The notes: a model not told the origin generated them from the letters alone. DNA of 64,000 bases from Naegleria gruberi (GCA_000004985.1 GG738854.1); one strand, 5' to 3'. Counted from the stretch's first letter, positions 24-56,707 are shown. Numbers and translations are program-made.

Positions 24-2615
24 ATGTTAATTATTACTTTTGTGAAGGTGGTTGACATTTCTGATTGTACTGTTGAAAGATTAGGTTCTCAATGGCTTTA
101 TGTCTCTTCAACAGTTGATATAATTTTGATGCGTTTAATTGTTAATGATTGCAAATTGAAGGGCAATTTAGTCTATCTCACTTCTACAAACAAGGTTTTT
201 ATTAAGAACTCTCTTTTTAAAGACATTACTGGAACTGTGGTTAATATGGCAAATATTGTAACTTTGGAGTTGAAAAATTCGACTTTCCATTCGTGCCATA
301 GTAGAATACACGAATCGATTGTGATACTGAACACTAATGAAGTATTTTCAGCTAGTGCAACTAATGAAAAATCGATTATTTGGGGATCAAGATTTATCAA
401 GTGTTCAGGGTCCAGGGGAGGAGCAATCTTCTTGAGTTCTTTTTATAAGGTTGATATTAACAGGTGTGAATTCATAGCAAATAGTGCACCAAGTGGGAGT
501 GCAATATACTCGGATAGTAGAAGGGGAATGATTTATACAGCTACAGGGCTGGAACCTACCATCTCCATCTTTCATTCACTATTTCAAGAGAATGGAGACC
601 CAACTTTTGGGTCAACATCCTCTGGAGGAGCCATTCACGTTAAGGGAAGCATATATATTGAACAATGTACATTTATTGCCAATTATGCTGTTAAGGGTGG
701 TGTAATTTATATTGACAAATCAGATTCCACCTTTTACTTTAGTCAATACGAACAAAAGTTAGCAGTATTGGTTGCTAGAAGTGAATTTCAGAATAACACA
801 GCAAATTTTGGAGAAATTTCCTTCACTGAACTACCTGATCCATCACTAATCTATTTCAAAACCAATATTGTTGTATTTAATCCAACTTCTCTGGGATCAC
901 CTTGTACCAAGCTAATTATTGATAATACGCAATCTGAACGAGGAAATGTTTACAATGGAACATTAATGGTTTACATGGGAGAGAATGTGAATATAAACAT
1001 GATTGCTTCTAATTTATACGGATACATATTCCCAAAACCATACACAATTATTGGAATTAGGACTCCTGGATCTTCCAAGATATTTGTCAAAACATTAGAT
1101 GATGAAGATCATGTTGAAAATCAAACATTTAACAAATCCTTCTCACTCTATTCACATTATGAAATTTCCTCTCATGAAGATTTGGAGATTTTCATTTCTT
1201 ATGATAAGGTTCATATATCACTCAACTTGATTGTAACACCTTGTCCATTATTCTACAAGTGGGAATCTCCTGTTTGTGTTAATATTTTCTACTTGATTCC
1301 AACTGTTGCTTCAGTCACTTTGTTGACGATAGTTATTGGACTTGTAGCAATTGTTGCTTGTTGTATTGCAAGAAACAAGACAAAGAGATGGAATAGTCGA
1401 AAGAAGGCAGAAAGAATAATGGAACAAGCTCTACTTGATAAAAGAGTTATCTTTGAGGAAGATGAAGAGTCTAGCTCATGTAATTTGAATCGACCTTTCA
1501 TAATCTCAGCAGAAGATATTGTAATTGTAAAGAAAATTGGTGAGGGAGGTGCTGCTAATGTTTTCCTTGCTAAATGGAAAGGTCAAGAAGTTGCCATTAA
1601 AACTCTTAAAGAATGTTTCAGAGGAGACAATGAGGTTTTGGAAACAGAAGCTGCCTTGATTAGTAGTTTCCTTCATCCGAATGTGATTAGATTTTGGGGA
1701 TTTTGTGCCTCATCCTCTCAGAAATACATGGTCATGGAGTATATGAAAGGAGGAAGTTTGGAGAATCTGATTCAGAGTTGTAAAATTGGAAAGGAAAAGT
1801 TGTCCCTCTATGAAAAGCTTCAAATTCTGATTGGGGTAGCTAAAGGAATGGCTTATCTGCATGGCTTGAAACCATGTTGTGTTCACCGTGACTTGAAACC
1901 TGGAAATATTCTGTTGGATGAAAATCGAATCAGTAAGGTTGGAGATTTTGGTTTATCCAGACTCATTTCAAATACCTATCAGACCAGTTTTACAACGAAT
2001 GTGGGTACTTTATTCTATATGGCACCAGAAAACTTTTCTGATAATACCTTCTCTGAAGATTCATTGGGAATGTCTGGTTTTTCACACACAACCTACCAAA
2101 CTACAAATATGACCAACAATACTCATCATTCCATCCAATCATACTATTCAGAGACAGAGTCAGCAGTAGATCAATCGGCAACTATACAAGAATCAGAGAC
2201 CTCTGAGAAGAAACTATTGAATGCTTCAAAGGTTGATGTTTACAGTTATGCAGTGATTATGTGGTCACTCTTCTTTGAGGAAAGTCCTTATGGAAACTAC
2301 AATACTAAGAAGATGAACTTTTTTGGAGATAGTAATGATAACTTTACTAATTGTTACACTGTTTTACCATTGATTCTTCAAGGTAAGAGACCTACAGTAC
2401 CATTTAATTCTGTTGAGAAGATGAAGAGATGGCTTGATGTGTTTGTACTCCCAAAAGAATTAGGAAAGGACAGAGAACATTTATCTAAAATTGTTTTTAG
2501 ATATCTCAACATGATGAAGCTGTGTTGGCATCCACAGCCAGAAGAGCGTCCACCATTTGATCAAATAGTTCCAGAACTGGAAGATTTAGCTGAGCAACTC
2601 CAATACAATAATTGA
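24..2615 (+). CDS. Receptor-like TKL protein kinase with a Pmp-like parallel beta-helix ectodomain, one TM helix and a cytoplasmic kinase domain. Probably 5'-partial, since there is no signal peptide inside the window. Single exon here.
   Basis: Ectodomain repeats: GGAIFLSS, SGSAIYSD, GGAIHVKGS, GGVIYID with F..N spacing. TM: IPTVASVTLLTIVIGLVAIVACCIA. Kinase motifs: GEGGAANVFLAKWKGQEVAIK, HRDLKPGNILLD, DFGLSRL, GTLFYMAPE. Stop is TGA at 2613-2615. Confidence 0.85.
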   Translation: MLIITFVKVVDISDCTVERLGSQWLYVSSTVDIILMRLIVNDCKLKGNLVYLTSTNKVFIKNSLFKDITGTVVNMANIVTLELKNSTFHSCHSRIHESIVILNTNEVFSASATNEKSIIWGSRFIKCSGSRGGAIFLSSFYKVDINRCEFIANSAPSGSAIYSDSRRGMIYTATGLEPTISIFHSLFQENGDPTFGSTSSGGAIHVKGSIYIEQCTFIANYAVKGGVIYIDKSDSTFYFSQYEQKLAVLVARSEFQNNTANFGEISFTELPDPSLIYFKTNIVVFNPTSLGSPCTKLIIDNTQSERGNVYNGTLMVYMGENVNINMIASNLYGYIFPKPYTIIGIRTPGSSKIFVKTLDDEDHVENQTFNKSFSLYSHYEISSHEDLEIFISYDKVHISLNLIVTPCPLFYKWESPVCVNIFYLIPTVASVTLLTIVIGLVAIVACCIARNKTKRWNSRKKAERIMEQALLDKRVIFEEDEESSSCNLNRPFIISAEDIVIVKKIGEGGAANVFLAKWKGQEVAIKTLKECFRGDNEVLETEAALISSFLHPNVIRFWGFCASSSQKYMVMEYMKGGSLENLIQSCKIGKEKLSLYEKLQILIGVAKGMAYLHGLKPCCVHRDLKPGNILLDENRISKVGDFGLSRLISNTYQTSFTTNVGTLFYMAPENFSDNTFSEDSLGMSGFSHTTYQTTNMTNNTHHSIQSYYSETESAVDQSATIQESETSEKKLLNASKVDVYSYAVIMWSLFFEESPYGNYNTKKMNFFGDSNDNFTNCYTVLPLILQGKRPTVPFNSVEKMKRWLDVFVLPKELGKDREHLSKIVFRYLNMMKLCWHPQPEERPPFDQIVPELEDLAEQLQYNN

Positions 2616-11712: not shown

Positions 11713-12028
11713 TTCTTCTTTTCAAAAAACTATTTAGCAATCTTTTTCATATTAAATCGCTATTGCCTTTTTATGAGATATCAACAAGCAGTCTATTTAT
11801 TACTTGATTTTGTAAAGTTTTTTCTTTTCCTATCATCTTTCTGCTCAAAAAAAATCCACTTTAACTCTTGTTAATTCCATTGGTGAGTAGTGTCGATAGA
11901 TCTGTAAGCGTTTTGGCTCATTAACCTTTTCGTGAGTATCCCCGCCTTAGTTACAATCGCTTTTCCATCGAACCAGTAATCTCCAGTCTGCACTTGAAGA
12001 ACCAAAGTCACGTTGATCTCAAAAAAAA

Positions 12029-14281
12029 ATGTTTAGTAACTGCCATCATCATGATGATGCTGAACGTGTAGTAATTATATTGGACGATCATGACAAATTT
12101 ATGGAACAATTATTGAATAGCAAATATAAACAAGAACGAAATTTATCATGCTACAAACAAATATTAAAATATTTAACTAATACGAGAGGTTTAATATTAA
12201 AGTATTATGAATTACCTGTTATATTACGAAGAGATCGGAGATTCATCACTGAAATTGCACAAACTTTTGAATTTTACCAACAATTACCTGAAGAATTTAA
12301 ATCCGATAAACAAGTAATGCTAAATTGTTTTAAAAAGAAAGTATTTAATGGAAGTGATATTAAGAGTGGATATATTCCCTCTAATTTAATGAATGATAGG
12401 AAATTTATATTGGAATTAATTGAAGGAAATCCAACATGTCTCTATTTAGTACCGAAAGAAAGAGAATTCGTGTTGGCAGCAATGAAACACGATATTATAT
12501 ATTTGGGATTTCTCCCAGGAAGTGAAAAGAAGAATGAATCATACATGTGGGAATTGTTTTTGAAAAATTGGGAAAATTTAAGATTTGCAAGTGGTGAATT
12601 ACTAAATAATCCATCATTTGCTATAAAAGTAAGAAAGCATGATACCAATACTTTCAACTATTATTGTGGACGGCCACATTTGGCGGTTCATGCAAGGGAT
12701 AAATTTCGAAATAATAGAGAATATGTGCTTTTTGCTATTTTACATGGAAAAGCTGATTTTACAATGATAAAAAAGGTATTTCAAGCGGATTTGGAAATTA
12801 AAATGGCAAATAATATTAAAACTGATGCCTCCTTATGGAAATTAAAGGAAGAATGGGCAAATGACAAGGAAATGATTTTGAAATATGTCAAACATAATTC
12901 AAATATATTGAAATTTATTAATTTGGAATTACTACAGGATTATGAATTTAATATTAAATTAATTTACAAAAATATTGAAAGTATTCAATTTATTAATGAA
13001 TGCAATACTAATTTTAAACAATTATTTACACAATCAGATAAAACTGAATTAATTTCTAGATATTTAAGCAACAAAAAATTTAACATTAATTCCAAAATTA
13101 TAAATCCAACTAATATTAGAGCATTTGGTTCCAAAATTAATTATATACATTTTATAGAGGAATATTTAAATGAAAACGATTTAATTTATATAACAAGTAA
13201 TATTGATGGACAAGCATGTTACGGTTTGTTAAACGTAATTTCCAATAAGAAAATTTTCAATGAATGCTTACAATTATGGAAAATAACAGTTAAAAAGCAT
13301 TATTCATGTTATGAATTATTTAATATAAAATATACCAAACAAGATATTATTGAGATAATTTCATCCATGCATGAATCTCCTTTTCCATTCCTGGCACACA
13401 TTGATAGAAATGTATTTAGCTCTGAGAGTGAAGTTCTTCTCATTGCAATTCAAACCCATTTCAAGTGCTTTGAATTGGCAAGTAAAGAACTGAAATCTGA
13501 CTTGAATTTTATTAGAAAGTCAGTCAATTTAAATAGAAATATTATTAAAGTAATAGATTTGCAAATTGTACAAGATAATTTGGATTTATTGATTATTTAT
13601 ATAAATTATAAATTAAAAATCAATACCATGTATGGATATCAAAATAGCGCTCATGCATTAAATCCATTAATTAACATATTAGCAAAACATTTACAAAATG
13701 AGGATACAGTTTTACAATTAGTAGAAATACCCCAATTTGTAAATTTATTTTATGGCCATATAGATATTAATTTAAGATCAAGTGAGGAATTCTGTTTAAA
13801 AATATTAAAAACAGATTTGAATAATGCCACTAAAATTCCAAATTTAATTAAATATAGAAATTTCATAATTGAATTTCTAAAAGAGGGAAAATCCATTACA
13901 TTCATTCCTAAAATATTCGAACAGGATGAGGAATTTTTACATTTATTTTTTAAAAACTGGAATCGTACGGAATACCTTCCAATATTACCAGCGGATGAAA
14001 TTTTTATTGGTATTCTAATTAAGGAATTGAAAATTAACCCATCCATATATAGAAATTTTAATAATAGTGATCCGTTGAAACATAATTGGGATATATTATT
14101 GAATGTTGCCAGAGATGTAAATAGCTGTTTAGTTTTTCCCACCACAATATGGCAAGATGAGAATTTTAAATTGGAACTTGTGAAGAGAGGAATTTTTCCA
14201 CCTTCCTTTTTGAAACATTTTAATAGCATTTTGAACGATATGGATTTGATTGTAGAAAATGGTTTTTACTTGATTCAATAA
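12029..14281 (+). CDS. Asn/Ile-rich repeat protein, hypothetical. Degenerate repeats of about 35 aa resemble DUF4116-type repeats.
   Basis: A 750-codon ORF with ATG after aaaaaaaaa. Recurring blocks: DKQVMLNCFKK, EREFVLAAMKHD, NREYVLFAILHG, DKEMILKYVKHNSNILKFI. Confidence 0.45.
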   Translation: MFSNCHHHDDAERVVIILDDHDKFMEQLLNSKYKQERNLSCYKQILKYLTNTRGLILKYYELPVILRRDRRFITEIAQTFEFYQQLPEEFKSDKQVMLNCFKKKVFNGSDIKSGYIPSNLMNDRKFILELIEGNPTCLYLVPKEREFVLAAMKHDIIYLGFLPGSEKKNESYMWELFLKNWENLRFASGELLNNPSFAIKVRKHDTNTFNYYCGRPHLAVHARDKFRNNREYVLFAILHGKADFTMIKKVFQADLEIKMANNIKTDASLWKLKEEWANDKEMILKYVKHNSNILKFINLELLQDYEFNIKLIYKNIESIQFINECNTNFKQLFTQSDKTELISRYLSNKKFNINSKIINPTNIRAFGSKINYIHFIEEYLNENDLIYITSNIDGQACYGLLNVISNKKIFNECLQLWKITVKKHYSCYELFNIKYTKQDIIEIISSMHESPFPFLAHIDRNVFSSESEVLLIAIQTHFKCFELASKELKSDLNFIRKSVNLNRNIIKVIDLQIVQDNLDLLIIYINYKLKINTMYGYQNSAHALNPLINILAKHLQNEDTVLQLVEIPQFVNLFYGHIDINLRSSEEFCLKILKTDLNNATKIPNLIKYRNFIIEFLKEGKSITFIPKIFEQDEEFLHLFFKNWNRTEYLPILPADEIFIGILIKELKINPSIYRNFNNSDPLKHNWDILLNVARDVNSCLVFPTTIWQDENFKLELVKRGIFPPSFLKHFNSILNDMDLIVENGFYLIQ

Positions 14282-33495: not shown

Positions 33496-33600
33496 ATTAA
33501 ACTTGTCAACAAATTGTAATTCTCATCCACTTCACACATGTCTTCCTAGAATAACAGAAGTACGTTTCGCAAAGTTTAGCTATGCTTATGAAGATTAAAT

Positions 33601-36600
33601 TCAATGTAACGTGCCAGTATCACTGTTGGAATTTTGGTAATTATTAAAATTATGTAATGATTGGAGAGGAATCAATCGGGGGAGATCATCGATTTTTTGA
33701 CATTGTGATTGTAATTCTTCCAATAAATCAATAATTTCAATAAATTCAGGTCTTTGTGAGGAATCCTGAGCCCAACATCTTTCCATGATTTGAACATATG
33801 ATTCTAAAAATCCAATAATTTCACTTTTTCCAAGATTTTCGATATGTTTCTTTGTAAAATTGTGTTCAATCCACTCATCAATTTGTTTTTCACTGAATGA
33901 TTTTGCATGCAACAGTTCTGGCCTGTGTCCTTTTGCAACTCTCATCAATATTTGGAAAACAGTTGTAGAGTTATCAATTTCATTTGAAAATGGTAATATT
34001 TCATATAATAGCTCCCACATTATTACTCCAAATGAATAAACATCCACTTTTGTGCTTTTACCTTTGTGATTATCTGAAAGTAATTCCTATAAAACAAAGT
34101 TCAACAAATCTATTTTCAATAGATACTTACAGGTGCCTATTGTATTTGTTAATGAATTCACAATAAAATACTTCCAAACTTACCATATAGAGTAAAGTTC
34201 CAACATTTGAGGTCATGGTTGCTGAATTGTTTGAAACAATTTTGCTCAATCCAAAATCTCCAACTTTTGCGTTCATAATCTTGTCCAATAAAATGTTCCC
34301 TGGTTTCAAATCTCTGTAATATTTTTGTTTAGGATAGAGTAAAACTCATAACATACCTGTGAATGATTTTGTGAGGTTTGATAGAATGTAAATATATCAA
34401 TCCTTTGGTGATATCAATCAAAATTTTAAGCTTGGTCTCAAATCTCATAATTTCTCTTCCTATTCTTGAGTTATAAATTGCCTTTTCTAGACTTCCATGT
34501 TCCATATATTCAACAACCATATATTTTCCATTGGTTGTGAGCGAAACTCCATAACAACTGACAATACAGGGATGTCTCAATGAGCTCATTAACATTGCTT
34601 CATTCTCAAACTCCTCATCATTTGAATCAGTTTTCAATTGTTTGATGGCAACATCAGTTCGATTCCACTTGGCATGGTAGATCATGCCCATTGCTCCTTC
34701 ACCAACTCTTTTTAGAATATTAATTTCTGATATTGGAATAATGTATTGTTGTCGTTTTTTTTGTGAATTAAGGATTTCCTTAGTATTAGAAGAATCTATT
34801 CCACTGTTAATACTATTTGAAGATATTAGTGGGGTGAATTCACTCTCAAATATAAATTCATTATCTGTAAACTTCCTTTCAATTTCCTTTTCAGCACGTT
34901 CTTGCTTCCTCAATTTCAACAATTTTCTTGTTATGAATATTCCTGCGTATAAAACTGCTCCAAATATAATTAAGAGTGAAATGAAACCTAATATTGCAGA
35001 GGTTAAAATAATTGCTATTGGAGAATATTCACAAATATAACCATTATCAAGCTTGTTTAAAATATAACTGTTTGGGCATGGAAGTATTTTCACTTTGACA
35101 ATTTTCTCAATGTCTGGAGTTACTATGATTGATAGAGAAAATTCTTTGGATATTTGACTTGGAAATATTTGCAAGCTCACTAATATTGTACGATTGTCAA
35201 ATAGATTATTTTGAGAAACAGTTCCATCTTCAATATTCGTTGGTCGAATAATCAACATATTCGGTTCCATCAATGATGAGGCAGTTTGATTGTAAAGATC
35301 TTTCACTAATACATTCATCTTGAATGATTCTCCAGGGTATATTTCAAGTTCATTGCCATTTTCTGTATTTCTTTCAAATTGAACTTCAACAGTTTGCAAA
35401 GGTGTCGCCACATTATTGCCATAGCATAGAGCATTATTTCCAACTATTATTTCGCCATTAACGGTCAACTGAGAGTAAATGCACCCTCCAGCATAAGCTG
35501 CAAGATTATTTTCACAAATTATATTCTTAATATAGGGAGTTACCGTGTTTATCCACATGGCCCCACCATTTTTTGCCGAGTTGTCATTAAAGGTAGAGTC
35601 AGTAAAACGAATTGAGCCAAATAATTTAGTTGTTTCAACATAAATTGCTCCACCTAAATCAGCAGTGTTTTTGGTAAATTGTGAATTTCCAATGTCTAAA
35701 TCTGTTCCATAAAGATAGAGTGTAGATCCTTTGCTTCCACCTGTATTTTCAATAAATTTACAATTTGTAATGGAAAGTGAATAGGACAACATTGTTTGAT
35801 CAAAAAATTCTAATAAAGCAGTGCCTGTTGTGAGTCTATTTTCAATAAACAAGCTATTGCGTATAAGTATTGCGATAATGCTAATAGAAGGATTATCTGT
35901 AAAGGATAAAAACCTTCCCCTATTATTTGAAACTAGACAGTTATTAATTGTTAAGGAGTCAACCATTTGTAATGAAAGCAACGCATTAGAGGCTGTATTA
36001 TTTTTAAAGGAACTGTTTGAAATTAGTATTCCAGAAATGCCAATCATTTGAAAGAGCATGTAATATTCAGTGTTTTCAATAGTTACTCCATTCAATTCAA
36101 TATTATCCAATGATATGAATAAAGCATTTGATAATACAGTAGAATTGATAATTGAAACTCTATTTCCAAGATTGAATTTCGAGATGGTCAGTAAGGAGCT
36201 TAATTTTGAGGTCCAAATAGAATTACCAATAGTAAATGTCTCAAAATTATCCATGTGAAAAACTCCATTAATTCTGCAATTATTAAATAGAACTGTTTTA
36301 GAATTTTTCAAATTAATAATTACTTCCATATTAGTGTTGAAAACGAATAGGTTTAATACTCCCACAATACTGAAATAATAATAAAAATTACAATCAATAA
36401 TCTCCAATTTTCGAATTTCCGAATGCATGACGACTGCATCTCTTGTTGTGCAATTTAACAATTTGAAATGTTCAATTCCATTATATAGTAAGAATTCCCC
36501 ACCAATGAATCCAAACTCTATTGTAAATGCATCAATAATTGCGTATGCCTGTAAATTGCCACGAGTAGTGAACAATTGCTTGTCCTTTCCTTTCCATATC

Positions 36601-37040
36601 ATTTCGAATCGATTTGCGTATTTGGAAAAATCGAAATTTGTTTCATAGCTTCGCATAAGTCCATTAATTACAATCACCATTGTGAAATTATCCAATTTTT
36701 TACCTTGATTAATTATTTCTGCCAATTCATTGTTTGCTGCTTTTACAATTTGACTCGGAGAGGAACATGGTTGATGCTCATCCCTACACGTTGCATTCAA
36801 ATCATCAACATTAGGAAATTCAGAATCTAAATAATAAATAGCTGAATATGATGATGAATTAATTGTATTGTTGGCCATTACATATTGATGATGCTCTTGT
36901 TCTTGTGGTTGGAGTACTACTACTAATTCATTATTAGCTAATATCGACTCGGACTTTGTTATTATCATCATTATCATCATCATAATAATTAAAAGCCTAA
37001 TAAATCTAAGAACCTCCGAAGAGGTGGTTATCTTGTGCAT
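33601..37040 (-). CDS. Receptor-like TKL kinase with a Pmp-like beta-helix ectodomain. Exons: 37040..34357, 34313..34184, probable 6-nt micro-exon 34136..34131, and 34086..33601.
   Basis: Signal peptide MHKITTSSEVLRFIRLLIIMMMIMMIITKS. Ectodomain repeats: GGAIYVET, GGAMWINT, GGCIYSQ. TM: IAIILTSAILGFISLLIIFGAVLYAGIFI. Kinase: VGEGAMGMIYHAKW...VAIK, HR|DLKPGNILLD (intron 34314..34356, 43 nt), DFGLSKI, GTLLYM|AP|ELL, DVYSFGVIMWE. Confidence 0.8.
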
Positions 37041-37328
37041 TTTGTTTTTCAATTTTTGAATTTGATTATCCGTCGGAAGCCTTCATATTCTCTTTCTCTC
37101 TCTAGCTGTGTATTAAGATGGATTCAATAGATTGTCTGATAATTTCTTGAAGTTATCTTAAATTGTAATAGAATTTGTGCTTATTGAAATTTTTATTTTT
37201 TAATTTTATTTGATGATTCGGAAAGTTTTTTTAAAAAAAACTTGCTGCTTTAATTATTATTGAATCCTTAATTAGCCTTGAAAACTTTGAAAGTTCTCCT
37301 GTCAGAGCATGTCAACCCATCAAAAAAA

Positions 37329-40339: not shown

Positions 40340-43300
40340 TTAATTCATAAGAATGGAAGAACACTTATTGAGCTTGTCACAAATTTCTGCAAATGAAGGT
40401 CTTTCAACGTCCTTGTCCCAACATTTTGTCATTATTTCACACAACTCTTTCACAACAAGGGCAAGCTTCATCTCTGAATTACGAGAAGATCCAAAAATTC
40501 CTCCCTTCTCATTTTCCATCAAAAAGGAATTGACATATTCCTTCAATAAAGGATCCAATTGTTGATATCTTCTTGAAGATGAACTAATGTGATCACTGCC
40601 AGTACCTTGGAAGGAGAAATTCTTCTTGATTCTAAATGGAATTATTGGTCTCAATCCATTCACAATCTCTGTTGTAATTGAAATCATGTTAAAGTTAGGC
40701 AAGGTAATAGAATCAATTTGCTCAATATCAATGTTTGATTTCACGAGAGGAGAGTCATTTCTAAGTGGTTCCTTTTCCAATTCCACATCATCAATATTAC
40801 TATCTTCATCCAAATTAATTGGTTCGTAAGGTTTCACATTAATAAGATTCTTGTGCTTGACCATAAAATTCTTCATGGCTTCAAAACTTTCGGGACTGTA
40901 GGCACGTTCTTCAAAGAGCAATTCCCACATGATAATACCAAATGAGTAACTGTCACACTTTTCTGAATAGTCCTGACCTAAAATGAGCTCTGGAGGCATG
41001 TAAACTGGTGTGCCGATGGCTGATGTGAGTACACTTGCAGAGTCTTGAGTAAATTCTCTTCCTAATCCAAAATCACAAATCTTGGCAACATTATTTTCAG
41101 AGATGAGAATATTTTCAGGTTTGAGATCTCTGTGAATCAATGGTGGATCTAAACTATGCAAATATTTCATACCATACGCAACATCTAACAAGTAATTGAG
41201 CTTTGTTGCCAGGTTGAGTGGGGTCTTTTTCTTTTTCGAGTCGTGAATCTTCTTTCTCAATGTACCTCCACTCAAATATTCAATGACAATGAACCGATCA
41301 CTTGGTGTAATTGCAATTCCATAGAAAGTAACAATATTTGGGAATCTGAGAGTACTGAGAATATAAGCTTCCTTTTCAAAAGTAGAGTTGATTGTGTCTG
41401 TTTCTGCTTGATTGTCTTCATCATATTGAGTAATGTCAATATTAATTCTCTTGACAGCTACAGTGTTATTCATCCATTTAGCTAAAAATATTACTGATTC
41501 ACCACCTTGGCCAATTCTTTCAACAATTTGCAGGTCTTCAGGTTTGATAATCCAACTCTTATCTTGATTGAAGGAGCTATTTCCTGCTGTATCATCGTGC
41601 AAACTGTGTTTGGAAGAAATAAGTTGATATTGGAGTAATCTCTTGTGTAAATCTTCTTCTGCTTGTTCTCTCTTCTTTAATTCTTTGAGTTTCTTTTTGA
41701 AGAAGTACAAACATAATGTGGTTAATAAAATGATAAAGGTCAAACCAAGGGCAACAATAACACCGAGTGAAATGAGTAATGCATTTTGAACTGCTGAATT
41801 GAAAATACATGCCTGATCATCTACACTGTAATCAAAACTGAAAGGACAATTTGGTTCAAGGTTGACTGGGAAGTAAAATTGTTGAATAACATTCTTACAT
41901 TTAAAGTAAAGAATTAAGGTTTGATTGAGTTGTCCTTTCACTTGTACGTTACTGAAAATAGCTGTATCATTTGAGAAGGTTGTAGAAACGTGATTCTTGT
42001 AGTCTTCTGTGTTGTTAATATTAGTTGTGAAAACCAAATCAATATCTGCATTCTTGATGCTTTCCATTCTTTCATTGAACAAGTCAAACGAATCCAAGGT
42101 TATTTTCACAAATTGACCTGCATATAAATTAAAACCAGTGTACTTTTTCAAGAGAAGAGACTTGAATATACTAAGAGGAAAATCGTACGGAGTATCCTTT
42201 GGTTCCCATCCATTACTAGAAAGAGCAAAATACTTTGGATCAGAGGCATAATTGTCTCCATAAAGTTCAGCATAATTATCGTCAAAAAAAGCAGTCTTGA
42301 ATTGGCTGGCAATACGCATACTGGTTGTTCCTACGAGAAATACAGCACCTCCAGAGTTTTCTGCTCTATTGTGAAGGAAATTAATATTGCTAAATTGGAA
42401 TTTTGAATTTGGATAATCAATGTTATACAAGTACATTGCTCCACCATTGTCTGCCTTGTTATAGCTCAGAGTGATATTAGAAACTGTAGTAGAAACAGAT
42501 GAAGGAGTGAAGAGAATTGCACCTCCCATTCCTTCTTTCACTGGATTGTGGACAATTCTATTGTACTGAAATAAGGAATCTTGGATATTCAAATTAGTTA
42601 AACCATAGGCAAATACAGCACCTCCTCCTGGAGCTTGCTCAGAGTAGGCCTCTTCAGGTTTGTAAATAATTACATTTTGACTAAATTTAGAACTTCTCAC
42701 ATCCAATAAATCTCCTCTCGACACGTAAATTGCAGAACCACGAATACTGGCAACATTACCTTCAAAAGAGGAATCCTTCAAAATGAGCGAACTCCTTCTC
42801 TCTCCATAAATACCGCCAGCTCTTCCTTGTCGTGCTAGTCCATAGTTGAAGCTACTTCTCTCCACAAATGAGTATGTACTTGATTTGAGATAGAGAGCAC
42901 CTCCATATCCATCACAGGTACTGTTAAATAGAGTTGAATCGTTCAGGAAAAATTTTCCCTTCTCAATAAAAATAGCTCCTCCATCGTACTTGGAATAACA
43001 TTTAGAGAATGTGGAATAGGTAATACTTGAATAAGGAATATCCAAATACAAACATCCACCAGAATCTTGACTTGTTGCTGTTTCGAATTTTGAAGTTGTA
43101 ATTGATACAGATCCACTCTCAGAAGTGACATAGATAAAACCACCAAATGAAGAGAGGGCAGTATTGTAACCATCAGAAAATGTGGAGCGTACCAATGTGA
43201 AAACTCTATCAGTAACTCGTTCGCTTTGATCTGAAATGTAGATTGATCCTCCATGTCTCAAAGCAGTATTTCCCTTAAAATTACAACGTAAAACACTCAA

Positions 43301-44928
43301 CTTCAATGTGTTTGAATTAATGGCTGCTCCAAACTGGGCACTATTATTAATAAACTGTGAATCAATAACCTTCAAACTGTCTGATGCTATCTCTGAAAAT
43401 TGTTGCAAGTCCAAATAACGAACTGCAGATGCACTGCTCGTTCCCTCAAAAACACATCCAATAATGGATCCATTCCTCACATTTTGTAAGAAGAGAGCTC
43501 CACCATCATTGTCCAAAAATTTTGTACCAACCACAGATGTAGCTTGTGAATCAGCAATAGCAAGAACAGGTAACGTGCCCATATTACTATTTTCCATAAA
43601 GGCAGAGTTTGCAACCAACACAATGTAATAATTTTGAATGGAAACAAAGTGACAGGTTGTGTAACTGAATTGAACATTGGTAATAAAAGCACTAGTACCT
43701 GTCAATGACTCACTACTCTTAACTTGTAAACTTCCAGTAGCATTAAAGTTGGTATCAGAGATTTTAACTTTGGAACACGTTGCACAAGTCATGGCACCAA
43801 CACTGTAACACTGACTTCCAGTGCAATTTGTTGCAAAATTGCTCTTCTCAATTGTGAACTGTCTAGCTGTGTGTCCAAAGATGAAATAGTGTTTTGGTGA
43901 TGTGGATGTGCACTTTTGAGTTGAGGCACCAAGATCTTTACTTTCATCCAAACCAATTGTTACATAACTGGATGCAACATTGAGTGTAAAGGAAACATTT
44001 CTGAATAAAGCTTCACAATTATTATCCAATTCAAAATCAATATATGATTCAGATGGTCCTAAATTCCTCACCACTTGCAAATTTTCATAAAAACAAGTGC
44101 CACCTGAACATTCAACATAAGAATCGACCAGTTTAGAATTTCTAATGACAATATCTGGTTGCCAAGTTGCCGAAAACACATCAAACATTCGATTCAACTT
44201 GTTCATCTCCACCTCTTCAAATATAACTCTTGTTGTGTAAATACTCGAAACATAATCATTCTCTACTGCAATCACAGCATTAACATCCCAATTTACAAAG
44301 GCAATATTGGTGAATGATATTTCCATTTTGAAAGGATTGATTCGTATAAAGGGAGAATAATCAGCACATGAAATGAAAGTCTTTGACAATCCATAAAAGT
44401 TGGCAATAATCTTGCTTTGGATAGCCTCTGAATTGTTATAGTATGGCAAGTCAATTGCACAATTATTACTACCATCACTCACATCTATATTATTCAATAA
44501 ATAAATATTTAATTCTTGTTCTTCCGCTATTATTACATGATAATAATTATAATAGTATTATTAGTATTAATTTACATATGATGATGATTATTATTAATTT
44601 ACATGATGATCATTAATTTACATTGAAAATCAACAAAATTACTATTCGCATATATAAAAACAAACTACCTACCTGTACTAGTCGTATTGAACAGCACACT
44701 CCACCTCTCCAGTACATATTTTAGTGAGTTACATGGCTGAGAAGGGGTAGAACAGGGAAAGAAGTTATTGTTACTGCTGCTACTAGCCTTCGGATCAATG
44801 TAGACACTACTCATTATCTTGGCAATTGTGGTGTTGATGGTCAAAATGTTGAGAAACGATAGCACCACGAGGATAGAAATCAATCGCCACACCTCATGAT
44901 CCCTTCGGGTCATCATTGAATGTCTCAT
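40340..44928 (-). CDS. Receptor-like TKL kinase of about 1460 aa with a Pmp-like beta-helix ectodomain. Exons: 44928..44673 (signal-peptide exon) and 44484..40340.
   Basis: Exon 1: MRHSMMTRRDHEVWRLISILVVLSFLNILTI...NTTST. The 188-nt intron is 44485..44672 (GTAGGT...ATATAG). Ectodomain repeats: GGALFLQNVRNGS, HGGSIYISD, DGGAIFIEKG, YGGALYLKSS, GGGAVFAYG, GGAILFTPS, NGGAMYLYN, SGGAVFLVG. TM: ALLISLGVIVALGLTFIILLTTLCLYFF. Kinase: IGQGGESVIFLAKW...VAVK, HRDLKPENILIS, DFGLGREF, GTPVYMPPE. Confidence 0.85.
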
Positions 44929-52537: not shown

Positions 52538-52712
52538 TTATACCAGTTTACAATATAAACTCAACTCTGATTCTACTCTTGGTGTTGTTCCAATCAATTA
52601 AGAATAAGGGAACAGAGAACATCAGTTGTTTTTTGAGTTTTTGATATTCGAAAGATCAAATACTTTAGATATCTAAAGGAATAGACTTAAATGCAAATGA
52701 TAGAAGACGGAT

Positions 52713-55700
52713 TTACATGAAAAGTGGGCTATCATCACATAATCTGGCAATTTCATACAAATGTTGGATAATTTCCTCAAAGCTTGGTCTTTCATTTGGG
52801 AGCTGATGCCAACACTGTTGCACTAGTTTGATATACTTGGAAACACCTTCAACAAATAGATTGCTGTTCTCATTATTGATTGGTTGAATAAATAATCTTG
52901 TCCATTCCTTCAATTGTTCATCATTTGAGAAGGGAATGTTTGGTCTTTTTCCTCTCACTATCTGGGTAATAACTGTTAGACTGTTACAATCTGACATCTC
53001 TGTAAAATAGTTCATCTTTTTGTGATTGTGAGTCGTATAAGGAACTTCTTCAAAAAAGAGTGACCACATAATAATTCCAAACGAATAGACATCAATCTTG
53101 GATGCATTCTTGATTCTTTCCTCTTTTGATAAGGAAGATCCTCCAAATGTACCTGATCCAATTGATGAATTACTATTCATATTTGAATTGGAATAATGGA
53201 TGGAGTCGGTAGCGTTTGAGAATCCAGAGAACTGTTCATTTTCAAAAAGCTCAGAATTATTAGAAACTCCAGAATCAAAATTCTCTGGAAATATTTGTTT
53301 AACACAGTGAAACTAGAATAAAACTTACCTGGAGGGCAATATAGAAGTGTACCAATGTTCAATGTCATACTAGTTTCAAACATGTTATTTCCAACAATTC
53401 TTGAAAGTCCAAAATCACAAATCTTTACACAATTTTTATCATCAAGAAGTACGTTTGCAATTTGAATGCCAGAATTCAATAAATTGTAATATAAATTACA
53501 TACCTGGTTTCAAATCACGATGACAAATCATATTTGGTTTAAGTGAATGCAAATAGGACATTCCTCTACTCACTCCCATCAAAATATCCAATTTCTGTTT
53601 CATAGTCAACTTTTGGCGACCAACTTTGCATTCACTGATTAGTTTTTCCAAACTACCTCCTTTCATGAATTCAATCACCATATATTTCTGGTTCTTGTTT
53701 GGAACACAAAAACCGTACATTGTAACTATTTCATCTTAAGTTATTTGAAACATAGGGGAATATTACATACCAATATTAGGATGTCTCAAACTAATTAAAA
53801 GTGCTCCTTCTCGTTCAAAAACATCTTCGTCATCTTGGTCCTTGATTGATTTAATTGCTACTTCAATTCCTTTCCATAATCCTTGATAAATCATTGATTG
53901 ACCTCCTTCTCCAATACGTTTCTGAATTGTAATATCCTCGGTTGGAATAATAAATGACGCCTTACTGTTAGGTCTATCCTCAGACTCTTCGAAAATAATC
54001 TTCTTATCAAGTAATACCCTTTCCATTTCAGATTCAGCTCTGGTTCGTTTTCTCAGTAGCTTTGATTTGTATCTAGCAACACAAAGTCCAATTAATCCAA
54101 TACAAGTGGTAATCAATGTCACTGCTGCTAAGCTTGTGACTAGAGGGAGAATGTAAAAAATGTTCACACAACCTGGTGCCTCATATCTATAGAAAGAAGG
54201 GCAAGAATCGAGAATAATATCCACCGTATAAGTTACTCTCTCATAGGTTACTGAAAGCTGCACACTTCTTGCTTCCTTGACTTCAGAATTTGAATACAAG
54301 CTAAAAGGCAGCCTGAAATCAGTATTGTTTGAGGAATCTGTCTTTAAAAACAGACTAGAATCACTAACTTGAAGAGTAATTGGAACCTTAGGTGTTTCAA
54401 TTAATCTTCCAAAAATGTTTCTTGCCTCAATCTCAATAATAAATTTTTGCCCCAAATAGGCTTTTTGAGTACCATTATAAACCGTGTGAGGATTGACATC
54501 AAGCTCAATAACTTTGTACTCAAATTCAAAACAAGGAGAGGAAATAGAGTCGTCATTGTCATAATAGTATTCTTCATTGATATAAATGGACCTATTACTG
54601 AGCACTTCTGAGTATCCAATTTTTCCATATTTTGCAGTGTTTGCATAAAAGACATTACTTGGAGTAATCGTGACCCGTATCTCTTTTGGTGCTTCCCCAA
54701 AGAAAATTACACCTCCCTTCTTTGCTATGTTTCGTTCAAAGTAACTTGTACTTATTTCAGAACTTCCTGTTACATAGAGTGCACCTCCTATGGTGTTTTC
54801 ATTTCCATTTCCAATAAATTTCGAGCCATCCACAGATAACACGTTTATATCGTATTTCGCACGAGACCTATATTCATAAAATATCGCTGAGCCCTTTGGA
54901 GCAACGTTATTGTAAAACTCACAATTCTTGACATGAAAAATAGCACTTGATTCAATATAAATTGATGATGTAGTGCAATTTAAAAATCTGGAATTTTGCA
55001 CAGTAGAAGATTTTTCGAAATAGTCATTGGATGGAATAATAGTATCATACGAAATTACATAATATATTGCTCCATTATAAGCATTTGGTTTCACATTAAT
55101 AAATTCTGAATGATCAACAAGGAAATAATGAATATCTTGCATGTGTAAACAAGTTGCAGAAATGTTGTTACATGACAGGTTTGTAATTTGTAACTCTTTG
55201 CATGTACTGATAAATATCATACTGCCTTGTGTGTTACTGTCATAGACTCTAACATTGTCAATCACTAGTTTGACGATAGAGGATACAAATAGCCAATTGG
55301 TTCCCATTGAAATGTTACTGTTAGTTATGTATGCGTCAATGGAATATCCAATATATAATACAGGATATCCTATTGCAAACGTTCCAATATAATCAATATT
55401 GTCAATAATTATTTCATTAGATTCAATGATTGAAAGTATAGAATCATCTCCAGTATCACACTCAAGTATTTTAACATCATCTACCCTTTCAATGAAGAGT
55501 TTGGCTTTCAGAGCAGAGTTTGTAATTTGCAAAATTCTTGAATTTCCTATAAAAGTATCCCCTCTGATTGTCACATGATCAAGCTCAATAATATCATAGT
55601 TAGCCATTCTCAAGTTTGTATCTGATATATCAACTTGTTGAAATATTGATACAGTTCCTTTTCTTGGTGAAAGAACCATTTGATTATTATATGTAAATTC

Positions 55701-56264
55701 ACCAAATTTCAAAAGTGATGCACTGAATTTACAATTTGTAAATGTTGCTTTGGGTGCACTCGTCAACGACATAGCAACATTGGTAAATCCAATATCTTGT
55801 GCCTCCACTGAAATGATGTTATTTTGATCAGTAAGAAGAGTTTGCCTTCCAACATGACAAACAATTGAGGCCATACCAGAATTCAATCCATTCTCAAATC
55901 TAACTCGATAACTAAAACCAGTTCTCTTATAAAAAGAAGGAACCTGACATTGATTCTCTGCTTGAATCCTAAAAACCACCGAGATAATAGTCTCTCCAAA
56001 CATCATTGTTTTTACCATATTATTCAAATGATTAACAGCACTACTCATATAATTACACAAATACTTTCCAGCACCTCCGGTACATGATGAACTAAATATC
56101 GAACTGATTGTATACTGATAACTCCTTTCCGAAACTCCAAGTACCAAATTATTATTTTCATTAATTATATTAGTACACAATAAAACAACAATGATCATCA
56201 AGTAATAAATTATTCTTGATGAACCCGAAGCGACTCTCCTTCTTGTATTCGTCATCACCATCAT
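52713..56264 (-). CDS. Receptor-like TKL kinase with a Pmp-like beta-helix ectodomain. Exons: 56264..53771, 53725..53504, about 53457..53329, and 53285..52713. The exon 2 to exon 3 junction is non-canonical.
   Basis: Signal anchor MMVMTNTRRRVASGSSRIIYYLMIIVVLLCTNII. Ectodomain repeats: NGAIYYVIS, KGSAIFYEY, GGALYVTGS, KGGVIFFGE. TM: LPLVTSLAAVTLITTCIGLIGLCVA. Kinase: IGEGGQSMIYQGLWKGIEVAIK, HPNI|VTMYGFC (45-nt intron 53726..53770), HRDLKP|ANVLLDD, DFGLSRI, LLYCPPG|ENF (43-nt intron 53286..53328), DVYSFGIIMW. Confidence 0.7.
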
Positions 56265-56707
56265 CGTGTGTCTAGCTTCTTTAAATTTGATGACGGTTGT
56301 GTTGTGGTCAATGAATTGCCGGCATAAAATCTTTGTGAGATTCAAAGACCAAAATTATTTGTGAGATGCAAACACAATTTTTTTCTTCTTGAAAAGAGTG
56401 GAAAATGCGTTGTGAATCTTAATTACGGTTAGACTAATAAGGGGAAATTTTCCGTATTTGGTCCCTTAATAGAATTTATTTTTTGAAAAAGATGGAAGTT
56501 TATTTTAGAAAATGATAAGAAAGGGGTTTTGAAATGTCAATGAAGGGTCATGACAGTATTGAGATAACAGTGGACAGAATCTGTCATCGAATTGACACCT
56601 GGCAGTTTGTTTGAAATGAACAGAGATAAACAAACGGTAAAAAAATGCCTCTCCTTAACAGCTCAACTAAAGATAATGACCTGCAAGCTTCCAGAAATTC
56701 AAAAGCA

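What the first reader, a model, noticed from the sequence alone, without database searches (positions are those of the whole stretch)
34087..34183. Probable 6-nt micro-exon encoding the 'AP' of the kinase APE motif
In the minus-strand kinase 33601..37040, the exon ending ...GTLLYM is followed by GTAAGT...(47 nt)...CAATAG | GCACCT | GTAAGT...(44 nt)...TTTATAG | GAATTACTT. Including the 6-nt exon GCACCT restores YM-AP-ELL, the conserved subdomain-VIII APE. Skipping it as one 97-nt intron is also in frame but gives YMELL. Both flanking splice sites are canonical. It is an in-frame micro-exon inside a catalytic motif and could be alternatively spliced.
Basis: seen in the sequence. Interest (0 to 1): 0.6.

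Follow-up and report, generated by a model that had tools for sequence, protein, structure and literature searches.

The report
Six-base exon inside a kinase motif
A Naegleria gruberi receptor-kinase gene very probably has a genuine 6-base exon that supplies the 'AP' of the conserved APE motif, but this is an ordinary example of a known phenomenon and the public protein model already includes it.

Summary
On the minus strand the exon ends ...TATATG (34184). It is followed by a 47-nt GTAAGT...TAG intron (34183-34137), GCACCT (34136-34131), a 44-nt GTAAGT...TAG intron (34130-34087) and GAATTACTT. Including GCACCT gives GTLLYM-AP-ELL.

The window is Naegleria gruberi. The gene encodes a 1101-aa type-I receptor-like TKL kinase.

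Evidence that the micro-exon is real:
- AG-GCNCCN-GT arises by chance inside such an intron about 1e-5 of the time.
- All 82 homologues keep two residues there.
- Pfam Pkinase drops from 179.8 to 162.2 bits without AP.
- Both introns have the window's typical size (43-47 nt) and AAC at -12/-13.
- Each intron position is found separately in relatives. YM|AP occurs in an N. lovaniensis gene. xx|E occurs in another N. lovaniensis gene and in two metagenome contigs.

The public N. gruberi protein already contains YMAPELL, and only this splice pattern can produce it. The feature is therefore already annotated, though I found no paper describing it.

No transcript data could be reached, so alternative skipping remains untested. 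The closest paralogue's public model stops by reading into the same upstream intron, which suggests its annotation missed that intron.

The parts
33601..37040 (-). Whole gene: a type-I receptor-like TKL protein kinase, 1101 aa. It has an N-terminal hydrophobic leader, a beta-helix-like repeat ectodomain, one TM segment and a kinase domain.
   Evidence: Spliced translation is open from ATG 37040 to TGA 33601. Pfam Pkinase / PK_Tyr_Ser-Thr match at residues 774-1061. 100% identity to N. gruberi protein P0001 over its 685 aa. The ectodomain gives only a sub-threshold Chlam_PMP hit.
34357..37040 (-). Exon 1 (2684 nt): leader, ectodomain, TM and kinase N-lobe up to ...KIIHR.
   Evidence: ORF 34329..37052 is listed. 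Residues 121-938 of my spliced model (exon 1 from residue 121, and exon 2) align to paralogue P0099, so the part upstream of P0001's annotated Met417 is coding.
34314..34356 (-). Intron A, 43 nt, GTATGT...ACAG, phase 2, inside HR|DLKPGN.
   Evidence: AAC lies 14 nt from the 3' end.
34184..34313 (-). Exon 2 (130 nt): DLKPGN...DFG...GTLLYM.
34137..34183 (-). Intron 1, 47 nt, GTAAGT...CAATAG, phase 0, between YM and AP. A branch-site-like TTAAC lies at 34152-34148, 12 nt from the 3' end.
   Evidence: The same position and phase occur in N. lovaniensis gene P0014 (L004 1338-1398, 61 nt). The position is inferred in N. gruberi paralogue P0099 from its read-through C-terminus YM-VSLDNFTN.
34131..34136 (-). 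6-nt micro-exon GCACCT = Ala-Pro of the APE motif (kinase subdomain VIII).
   Evidence: It is part of the only splice combination that yields the public protein sequence. Chance is about 1e-5. 82/82 homologues have two residues here.
34087..34130 (-). Intron 2, 44 nt, GTAAGT...TTTATAG, phase 0, between AP and E. A branch-site-like TTGAAC lies at 34104-34099, 13 nt from the 3' end.
   Evidence: The same position and phase occur in L001 (46 nt), L002 (43 nt) and N. lovaniensis L003 (68 nt). Window paralogue C has an intron 1 nt downstream (53328-53285).
33601..34086 (-). Last exon (486 nt including the stop): ELLSDNHKGKSTKVDVYSFG... kinase C-lobe and tail.

Best explanation
GCACCT (34136-34131) is a genuine internal coding exon of 6 nt in a Naegleria gruberi receptor-like TKL kinase gene. 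It is included in the functional mRNA, where it encodes the Ala-Pro of the APE motif at the end of the activation segment.

It exists because two short spliceosomal introns sit 6 nt apart. One lies at the YM|AP codon boundary and one at the AP|E boundary. Each is a complete, typical local intron: a perfect GTAAGT donor, 44-47 nt long, an AAC branch-like element 12-13 nt before a TAG acceptor.

Inference: the introns are recognised by intron definition. The acceptor of intron 1 and the donor of intron 2 are too close for both to be occupied at once, so the two introns are probably removed one after the other, as documented for plant micro-exons.

Shown here: the sequence anatomy, the reading-frame consequences, the conservation of the two residues, and the separate occurrence of each intron position in relatives.

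Inferred: actual inclusion in RNA, the order of splicing, and the need for AP for catalytic competence.
For: - Anatomy and frames.
- Only this two-intron solution reproduces the public N. gruberi protein ...GTLLYMAPELLSDNHK....
- AG-GCNCCN-GT appeared in 2/200,000 shuffles.
- 82/82 homologues have two residues, mostly AP, between Y[MILC] and E, with no 2-residue deletion.
- Pfam Pkinase scores 179.8 bits with AP and 162.2 without; PK_Tyr_Ser-Thr scores 176 and 164.
- The motif aligns without gaps to GTPEWMAPEVL of the solved CTR1 kinase 3PPZ.
- Short introns of 43-58 nt with GTAAGT/GTATGT are the norm in this window. Seven of 9 short introns, including both here, carry AAC 8-15 nt from the 3' end, against 26% of shuffles.
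- The intron-1 position is present in N. lovaniensis L004. The intron-2 position is present in L001, L002 and N. lovaniensis L003.
- Retention of either intron gives early stops.
- Sequential removal of the introns flanking micro-exons is documented in plants (PMC8831610).
Against: - No transcript evidence was reachable. The public protein may come from a homology-guided gene model, so it is not independent proof of splicing.
- No other locus I could read has both introns together. A metagenome pattern scan found only 2 chance hits.
- Skipping is also in frame, so sequence alone cannot exclude it.
- A 6-nt exon poses a steric problem for simultaneous splice-site recognition.
Confidence: 0.85

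Rival explanations
1. Alternative cassette micro-exon. Both isoforms are made: +AP is a normal kinase, and delta-AP (YMELL) is an in-frame, probably catalytically impaired receptor, perhaps a regulated decoy or pseudokinase form.
For: Skipping keeps the frame and leaves an open 1099-codon ORF. A 97-nt intron is within the local size range, since 119- and 146-nt candidate introns exist in the window. Exon skipping has been detected in N. gruberi transcriptomes in general (PMC6142364).
Against: No isoform data exist. In non-animal eukaryotes intron retention dominates over exon skipping (PMC6142364; PMC8831610). Both donors are perfect GTAAGT and each intron has its own branch-like element, which favours constitutive use. 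No homologue among 82 shows a delta-2 form.
Confidence: 0.1
2. There is no micro-exon. The 97 nt are a single intron, the GCACCT is a coincidence, and the real protein is YMELL.
For: GT...AG boundaries for a single 97-nt intron are canonical and the product is in frame.
Against: Chance of an internal AG-GCNCCN-GT is about 1e-5. All homologues keep the two residues. Pfam score falls 12-18 bits. Each internal splice site coincides exactly with an intron boundary used in relatives.
Confidence: 0.03
3. Decaying gene. The locus is a pseudogene of an expanded family and the splice pattern is irrelevant.
For: The family is large and clustered, with at least four kinase paralogues in this 64-kb window. 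One neighbour (paralogue C) has an intron without an AG acceptor.
Against: The spliced frame is open for 1101 codons with all catalytic motifs (HRDLKPGN, DFG, APE, subdomain XI RP) intact. Splice sites are perfect.
Confidence: 0.02

Closest known systems
Plant acid invertase / fructan-exohydrolase 9-nt mini-exon encoding DPN of the NDPNG catalytic motif
   Same: It is a very small, in-frame internal exon lying inside a conserved catalytic-domain motif and flanked by canonical introns. Family members that lost a flanking intron carry the same residues fused to a neighbouring exon (PMC4579127). Loss of the mini-exon gives a putatively non-functional allele (PMC4477480 abstract).
   Different: It is 9 nt rather than 6, in a different enzyme family and kingdom. 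The plant mini-exon is conserved across many genes and species and has transcript and experimental support. Here the two-intron arrangement is seen in one gene, perhaps also its closest paralogue, and has no RNA data.
Small (<=15 nt) constitutive coding micro-exons of plants (Yu et al. 2022, PMC8831610) and the Arabidopsis APC11 1-nt exon (PMC4674806)
   Same: These are ultra-short coding exons that encode conserved protein motifs, with Pkinase among the top domains in Chlamydomonas. They are often missed or mis-annotated, and their flanking introns are removed consecutively.
   Different: Those were defined from RNA-seq; this one rests on sequence and comparative evidence. The organism is a heterolobosean (Discoba). 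I found no paper on micro-exons in this organism.
Animal neuronal alternative micro-exons (3-27 nt)
   Same: They are small and in-frame, and they sit within structured protein regions.
   Different: Animal micro-exons are regulated cassettes embedded in long introns and depend on exon-definition enhancers (from general knowledge). Here the introns are 44-47 nt and nothing indicates regulation.
TKL-group protein kinases (e.g. Arabidopsis CTR1, human TAK1)
   Same: These are the best solved-structure matches (E 5e-41 to 7e-40). The activation-segment motif GTxxWMAPE aligns without gaps.
   Different: The Naegleria protein is a single-pass receptor with a repeat-rich ectodomain. CTR1 and TAK1 are cytosolic.

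Membership tests
Internal coding micro-exon flanked by spliceosomal introns | Canonical GT...AG boundaries on both flanking introns | tested here: met
   GTAAGT...TAG on both sides.
Internal coding micro-exon flanked by spliceosomal introns | Each flanking intron is viable on its own (length and branch-like element typical of the organism) | tested here: met
   The introns are 47 and 44 nt, against local short introns of 43-58 nt. AAC lies 12-13 nt from the 3' end, as in 7 of 9 short introns, against 26% of shuffles.
Internal coding micro-exon flanked by spliceosomal introns | Inclusion preserves the frame and restores conserved residues | tested here: met
   The ORF is 1101 aa with YMAPELL. 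82/82 homologues have the two residues. Pfam gains 12-18 bits.
Internal coding micro-exon flanked by spliceosomal introns | Exon-exon junctions observed in RNA | not testable with these tools
   N. gruberi DNA and RNA are not in the contig index. The spliced-junction scan of metagenome contigs was empty. RNA-seq exists as PRJEB23822.
Internal coding micro-exon flanked by spliceosomal introns | Same exon-intron arrangement conserved in orthologues or paralogues | tested here: inconclusive
   Each intron position is found separately (L004 for intron 1; L001, L002, L003 for intron 2). Both together were seen in no other readable locus. Paralogue P0099 has intron 1 by inference only.
Alternatively spliced cassette micro-exon | Both inclusion and skipping isoforms present | not testable with these tools
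   The only fact available is that skipping is in frame.
Eukaryotic protein kinase, TKL-like | Pkinase / PK_Tyr_Ser-Thr domain above the gathering score, with HRD, DFG and APE motifs | tested here: met
   175.9 and 170.3 bits against cut-offs of 31.7 and 23.1. HRDLKPGN, DFG and APE are present in the translation. Best PDB matches are CTR1 and TAK1.
Chlamydia-PMP-repeat ectodomain receptors | Chlam_PMP (PF02415) repeats above threshold | tested here: not met
   Only 14.2 bits against a cut-off of 20.6, E 0.054. I do not file the ectodomain under this family.

The most novel reading that the evidence does not exclude
The 6-nt exon is a regulated switch. Naegleria would skip it in some life stage or condition to make an in-frame delta-AP, kinase-impaired receptor from the same gene, possibly also in its close paralogue. 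That would be an alternatively spliced micro-exon controlling catalytic competence in an early-branching, intron-definition eukaryote.
Probability: 0.07. Interest if true: 0.55.

Novelty: already known. Interest (0 to 1): 0.22.

Why it matters
The value is mainly practical and illustrative.

It shows that the N. gruberi spliceosome is expected to handle a 6-nt exon. According to PMC4674806, that size was long the smallest known for a constitutive exon.

Two old intron positions 6 nt apart can leave the middle of a catalytic motif as a free-standing exon.

It also flags an annotation weakness. The same public annotation that models this micro-exon truncates the gene's N-terminus at Met417. It also ends the closest paralogue (P0099) by reading into the equivalent upstream intron, which removes that kinase's C-lobe.

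A genome-wide, RNA-seq-guided micro-exon scan in Naegleria would probably repair several kinase models. Nothing here changes what is known about splicing or kinases.

Tried and rejected
1. Looking up the spliced protein, P0001, P0011 and P0099 in the contig index.
2. Scanning metagenome contigs for the spliced junction, with or without the 6 nt. There were 0 hits.
3. Scanning metagenome contigs for the structural pattern ATG|GTADGT..AG|GCNCCN|GTADGT..AG|GAR. There were 2 hits, both chance: L006 is unrelated coding DNA and L007 is a repeat.
4. Testing whether the micro-exon arose by tandem duplication of an intron. The two introns are no more alike than shuffles (score 10 against a mean of 13.2).
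5. Testing whether either intron is a repeated, introner-like element. There are no other copies in the window.
6. Looking for RNA secondary structure that presents the micro-exon. The z-score was -1.66 and 12/200 shuffles folded as well, so it is not significant.
7. Searching the literature for Naegleria plus micro-exon. Nothing relevant turned up.
8. Enumerating all other one- or two-intron GT/GC-AG solutions that could give YMAPELL. None exists besides the one proposed.
9. My first inference that intron 1 is a lineage-specific gain. I rejected it after L004 showed the same position in N. lovaniensis.

Full report
**Observation.** I read 33500-37200 on the minus strand and extracted the pieces by coordinate. 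The exon ends ...CTCTATATG at 34184. Then come:
- a 47-nt segment GTAAGTTTGG...ACAATAG (34183-34137);
- GCACCT (34136-34131);
- a 44-nt segment GTAAGTATCT...TTTTATAG (34130-34087);
- GAATTACTT from 34086.

A third intron of 43 nt (34356-34314, GTATGT...ACAG) splits HR|DLKPGN.

Joining 37040-34357, 34313-34184, 34136-34131 and 34086-33601 gives an open frame of 1101 codons containing ...NVGTLLYMAPELLSDNHKGKSTKVDVYSFG... Leaving out the 6 nt gives an open 1099-codon frame with YMELL. Retaining either or both introns gives a stop within 5-37 codons of the junction.

**Organism and gene.** The full product matches a 685-aa 'predicted protein [Naegleria gruberi]' (P0001) at 100% identity. Base composition (about 33% GC) and the short introns fit that organism.

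Pfam finds Pkinase (175.9 bits) and PK_Tyr_Ser-Thr (170.3 bits) at residues 774-1061. The best solved relatives are the TKL kinases CTR1 and TAK1. Upstream lie a hydrophobic N-terminal leader, a repeat-rich ectodomain and one hydrophobic transmembrane stretch. The ectodomain gives only a sub-threshold Chlam_PMP hit. The protein is therefore a type-I receptor-like kinase.

The window carries at least three more paralogues of this family: roughly 444-2588 on the plus strand, and 42625-40805 and 54932-52725 on the minus strand. A more distant kinase lies at about 49404-49030.

**Is it more than chance?** In mononucleotide shuffles of the 97 nt, with the outer splice sites fixed, a generic AG-6nt-GT with both halves >=35 nt and no stop occurs 6% of the time. 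A bare 'in-frame 6-mer with minimal splice sites' would therefore mean little. One that encodes Ala-Pro (GCNCCN) occurred in 2 of 200,000 shuffles, and the analytic estimate is 1e-5 to 5e-5.

This happens exactly where the kinase would otherwise lack two residues:
- In an alignment of the 82 best database homologues, every one has two residues between Y/W-[MILC] and the Glu of APE, mostly AP, also SP, PP, DP and a few others.
- Removing AP lowers the Pfam Pkinase score from 179.8 to 162.2 bits and PK_Tyr_Ser-Thr from 176 to 164.
- The motif aligns without gaps to GTPEWMAPEVL of CTR1, PDB 3PPZ.

**Are the two halves credible introns?** A scan for GT[AT]NGT...AG segments that join long open frames found the window's short introns to be 43-58 nt, plus two candidates of 119 and 146 nt. 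The 47- and 44-nt introns are thus of the modal size. Both have perfect GTAAGT donors and TAG acceptors.

Seven of nine short introns in the window, including both of these, carry AAC 8-15 nt before the 3' end, against 26% of shuffles. Here it lies at 12 and 13 nt, as TTAAC and TTGAAC. I read this as a branch-site-like element, which is an inference.

**Comparative evidence.** This was the most informative part.
- *Intron-2 position (phase 0, just before the Glu codon).* It recurs in a JGI metagenome contig encoding the most similar partial relative, which is 58% identical over 56% of the kinase-domain query. There AP is fused to the upstream exon: L001, GCACCA|GTAAGT..46 nt..CACAG|GAA. It also recurs in a second contig of the same sample (L002, 43 nt) and in N. 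lovaniensis gene P0022 (L003, 68 nt).
- *Paralogue C.* It has an intron 1 nt further downstream, in phase 1 (53328-53285).
- *Intron-1 position (phase 0, YM|AP).* It recurs in N. lovaniensis gene P0014: L004, TATATG|GTAGGT..61 nt..AAAAG|GCACCTGAACTATTG, with AP-E contiguous.
- *No intron at either site.* This holds for window paralogues A and B, N. lovaniensis P0015 (L005) and several metagenome relatives with contiguous ORFs.

Both splice junctions that define the micro-exon are thus independently used at the same codon boundaries in relatives. The gene under study is the one locus I could read that has both. Whether the ancestor had both introns, followed by differential loss, or they were gained separately cannot be decided from this sample.

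The two introns are not similar to each other and have no other copies in the window. There is therefore no sign of origin by duplication or by an introner-like element.

**Public annotation.** P0001 contains ...GTLLYMAPELLSDNHK.... I enumerated all one- and two-intron GT/GC-AG solutions in 34313-33950. Only introns 34183-34137 plus 34130-34087 produce that peptide. The public gene model therefore already uses this 6-nt exon, and the finding is not new as a database fact. I found no paper on micro-exons in Naegleria.

The model may have been homology-guided, so I do not count it as transcript evidence. It starts at what is Met417 of the longest frame. The upstream 416 codons are open from an ATG preceded by in-frame stops. 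My residues 121-938, which include residues 121-416 of that upstream part, align to paralogue P0099 at 49% identity over 838 aligned columns. The public N-terminus is therefore probably truncated.

**A likely annotation casualty.** P0099 is an N. gruberi paralogue on another scaffold, 87% identical in the kinase domain. It ends ...NVGTLLYM-VSLDNFTN. Reading through our intron 1 gives YM-VSLEVFYC.... VSL(D/E) is the translation of GTAAGTTTGGA-.

The paralogue evidently has an intron at the same boundary, and its public model runs into it and stops, losing the whole C-lobe. Whether it also has the 6-nt exon could not be checked, because N. gruberi DNA is not in the contig index.

**Mechanism.** My best explanation is a constitutive coding micro-exon created by two neighbouring short introns. 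With introns this short, splice sites are expected to be paired across the intron (intron definition, established knowledge).

The acceptor of intron 1 and the donor of intron 2 are 6 nt apart and cannot plausibly be occupied at the same time. The introns are therefore probably removed consecutively. This has been shown for plant micro-exons, where the upstream intron tends to be the one detained (PMC8831610).

No significant RNA structure spans the region (z -1.66). In the protein, AP-E closes the activation segment. It is established kinase knowledge that the APE Glu pairs with the conserved Arg of subdomain XI, here in SQRPEF. A two-residue deletion would displace it, so the skipped form is predicted to be impaired. 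That prediction is an inference and was not tested.

**Rivals.**
- *Alternatively skipped cassette.* It cannot be excluded because skipping is in frame, but nothing favours it. Exon skipping is the minority mode outside animals (PMC6142364).
- *A single 97-nt intron with a coincidental GCACCT.* The statistics and the comparative data effectively exclude it.
- *A pseudogene.* This is unlikely given an intact 1101-codon frame with all catalytic motifs.

**Comparison with known cases.** The nearest analogue is the 9-nt mini-exon of plant acid invertases. It encodes DPN of the NDPNG motif, and family members differ in whether the flanking introns are present (PMC4579127). More generally the feature belongs with the <=15-nt coding micro-exons catalogued in plants, which often encode conserved motifs and are often mis-annotated (PMC8831610). 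Six nucleotides was long cited as the smallest constitutive exon, until a 1-nt exon was shown in Arabidopsis APC11 (PMC4674806).

**Verdict.** The kind of feature is known and this instance is already in the public protein model. Interest is low to moderate. The useful by-products are the evidence that both intron positions are old in the family, and the pointers to mis-annotated neighbours and paralogues.

Noticed in passing
window 53503-53458 (minus strand), in paralogue C (about 56345-52850): Paralogue C gives an uninterrupted 1165-codon frame with intact HRDLKPANVLLDD...DFG...LLYCPPENF only if a 46-nt segment GTATGT...CAAATTG is removed. The segment ends in TG, not AG, and there is no AG within 79 nt of its GT. 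It is an apparent non-canonical GT-TG intron, a very recent acceptor mutation, or an assembly error.
   Followed up: partly
window 53328-53285 (minus strand): Paralogue C has a 44-nt intron in phase 1 inside the Glu codon of its PPE motif. That is 1 nt downstream of the phase-0 position of intron 2 in the gene under study and in L001-L003. It is a possible case of intron sliding or of independent insertion at a near-identical site.
   Followed up: partly
window 37040-35792 (minus strand): The public protein P0001 starts at Met417 of the longest open frame. The 416 codons upstream are open from an ATG preceded by stops and begin with a hydrophobic leader. Residues 121-416 are homologous to paralogue P0099. 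The public model therefore looks N-terminally truncated.
   Followed up: partly
not in window: N. gruberi protein P0099 (820 aa, on a scaffold of 174,974 nt): The closest paralogue is 87% identical in the kinase domain. Its public model ends ...GTLLYMVSLDNFTN, which is a read-through of a GTAAGTTTGGA donor at the same YM| boundary. The model lacks the whole kinase C-lobe, probably because the intron, and perhaps a micro-exon, was missed.
   Followed up: partly
window 24-2615 (+), 33601-37040 (-), 40340-44497 (-), 52700-56345 (-): There is a cluster of at least four receptor-like kinase paralogues in 64 kb, with different intron states at the APE site: none, both, none, and one shifted by 1 nt. 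Paralogues A and C, and N. lovaniensis P0015, carry a long Ser/Asn-rich insert between APE and DVYSFG.
   Followed up: partly
window 12001-14000: This is the lowest-GC stretch of the window (25.8% against about 33%). It coincides with a 750-codon ORF at 12029-14281 (+) and has no tandem repeats. I did not examine it further.
   Followed up: no
L004 1-409 and 501-1875 (N. lovaniensis PYSW02000006.1): The N. lovaniensis homologue P0014 (414 aa) starts within the transmembrane/juxtamembrane region. It is immediately preceded by a separately annotated 806-aa gene with a faint Chlam_PMP hit. The two models are probably one receptor-kinase gene split by the annotation.
   Followed up: no
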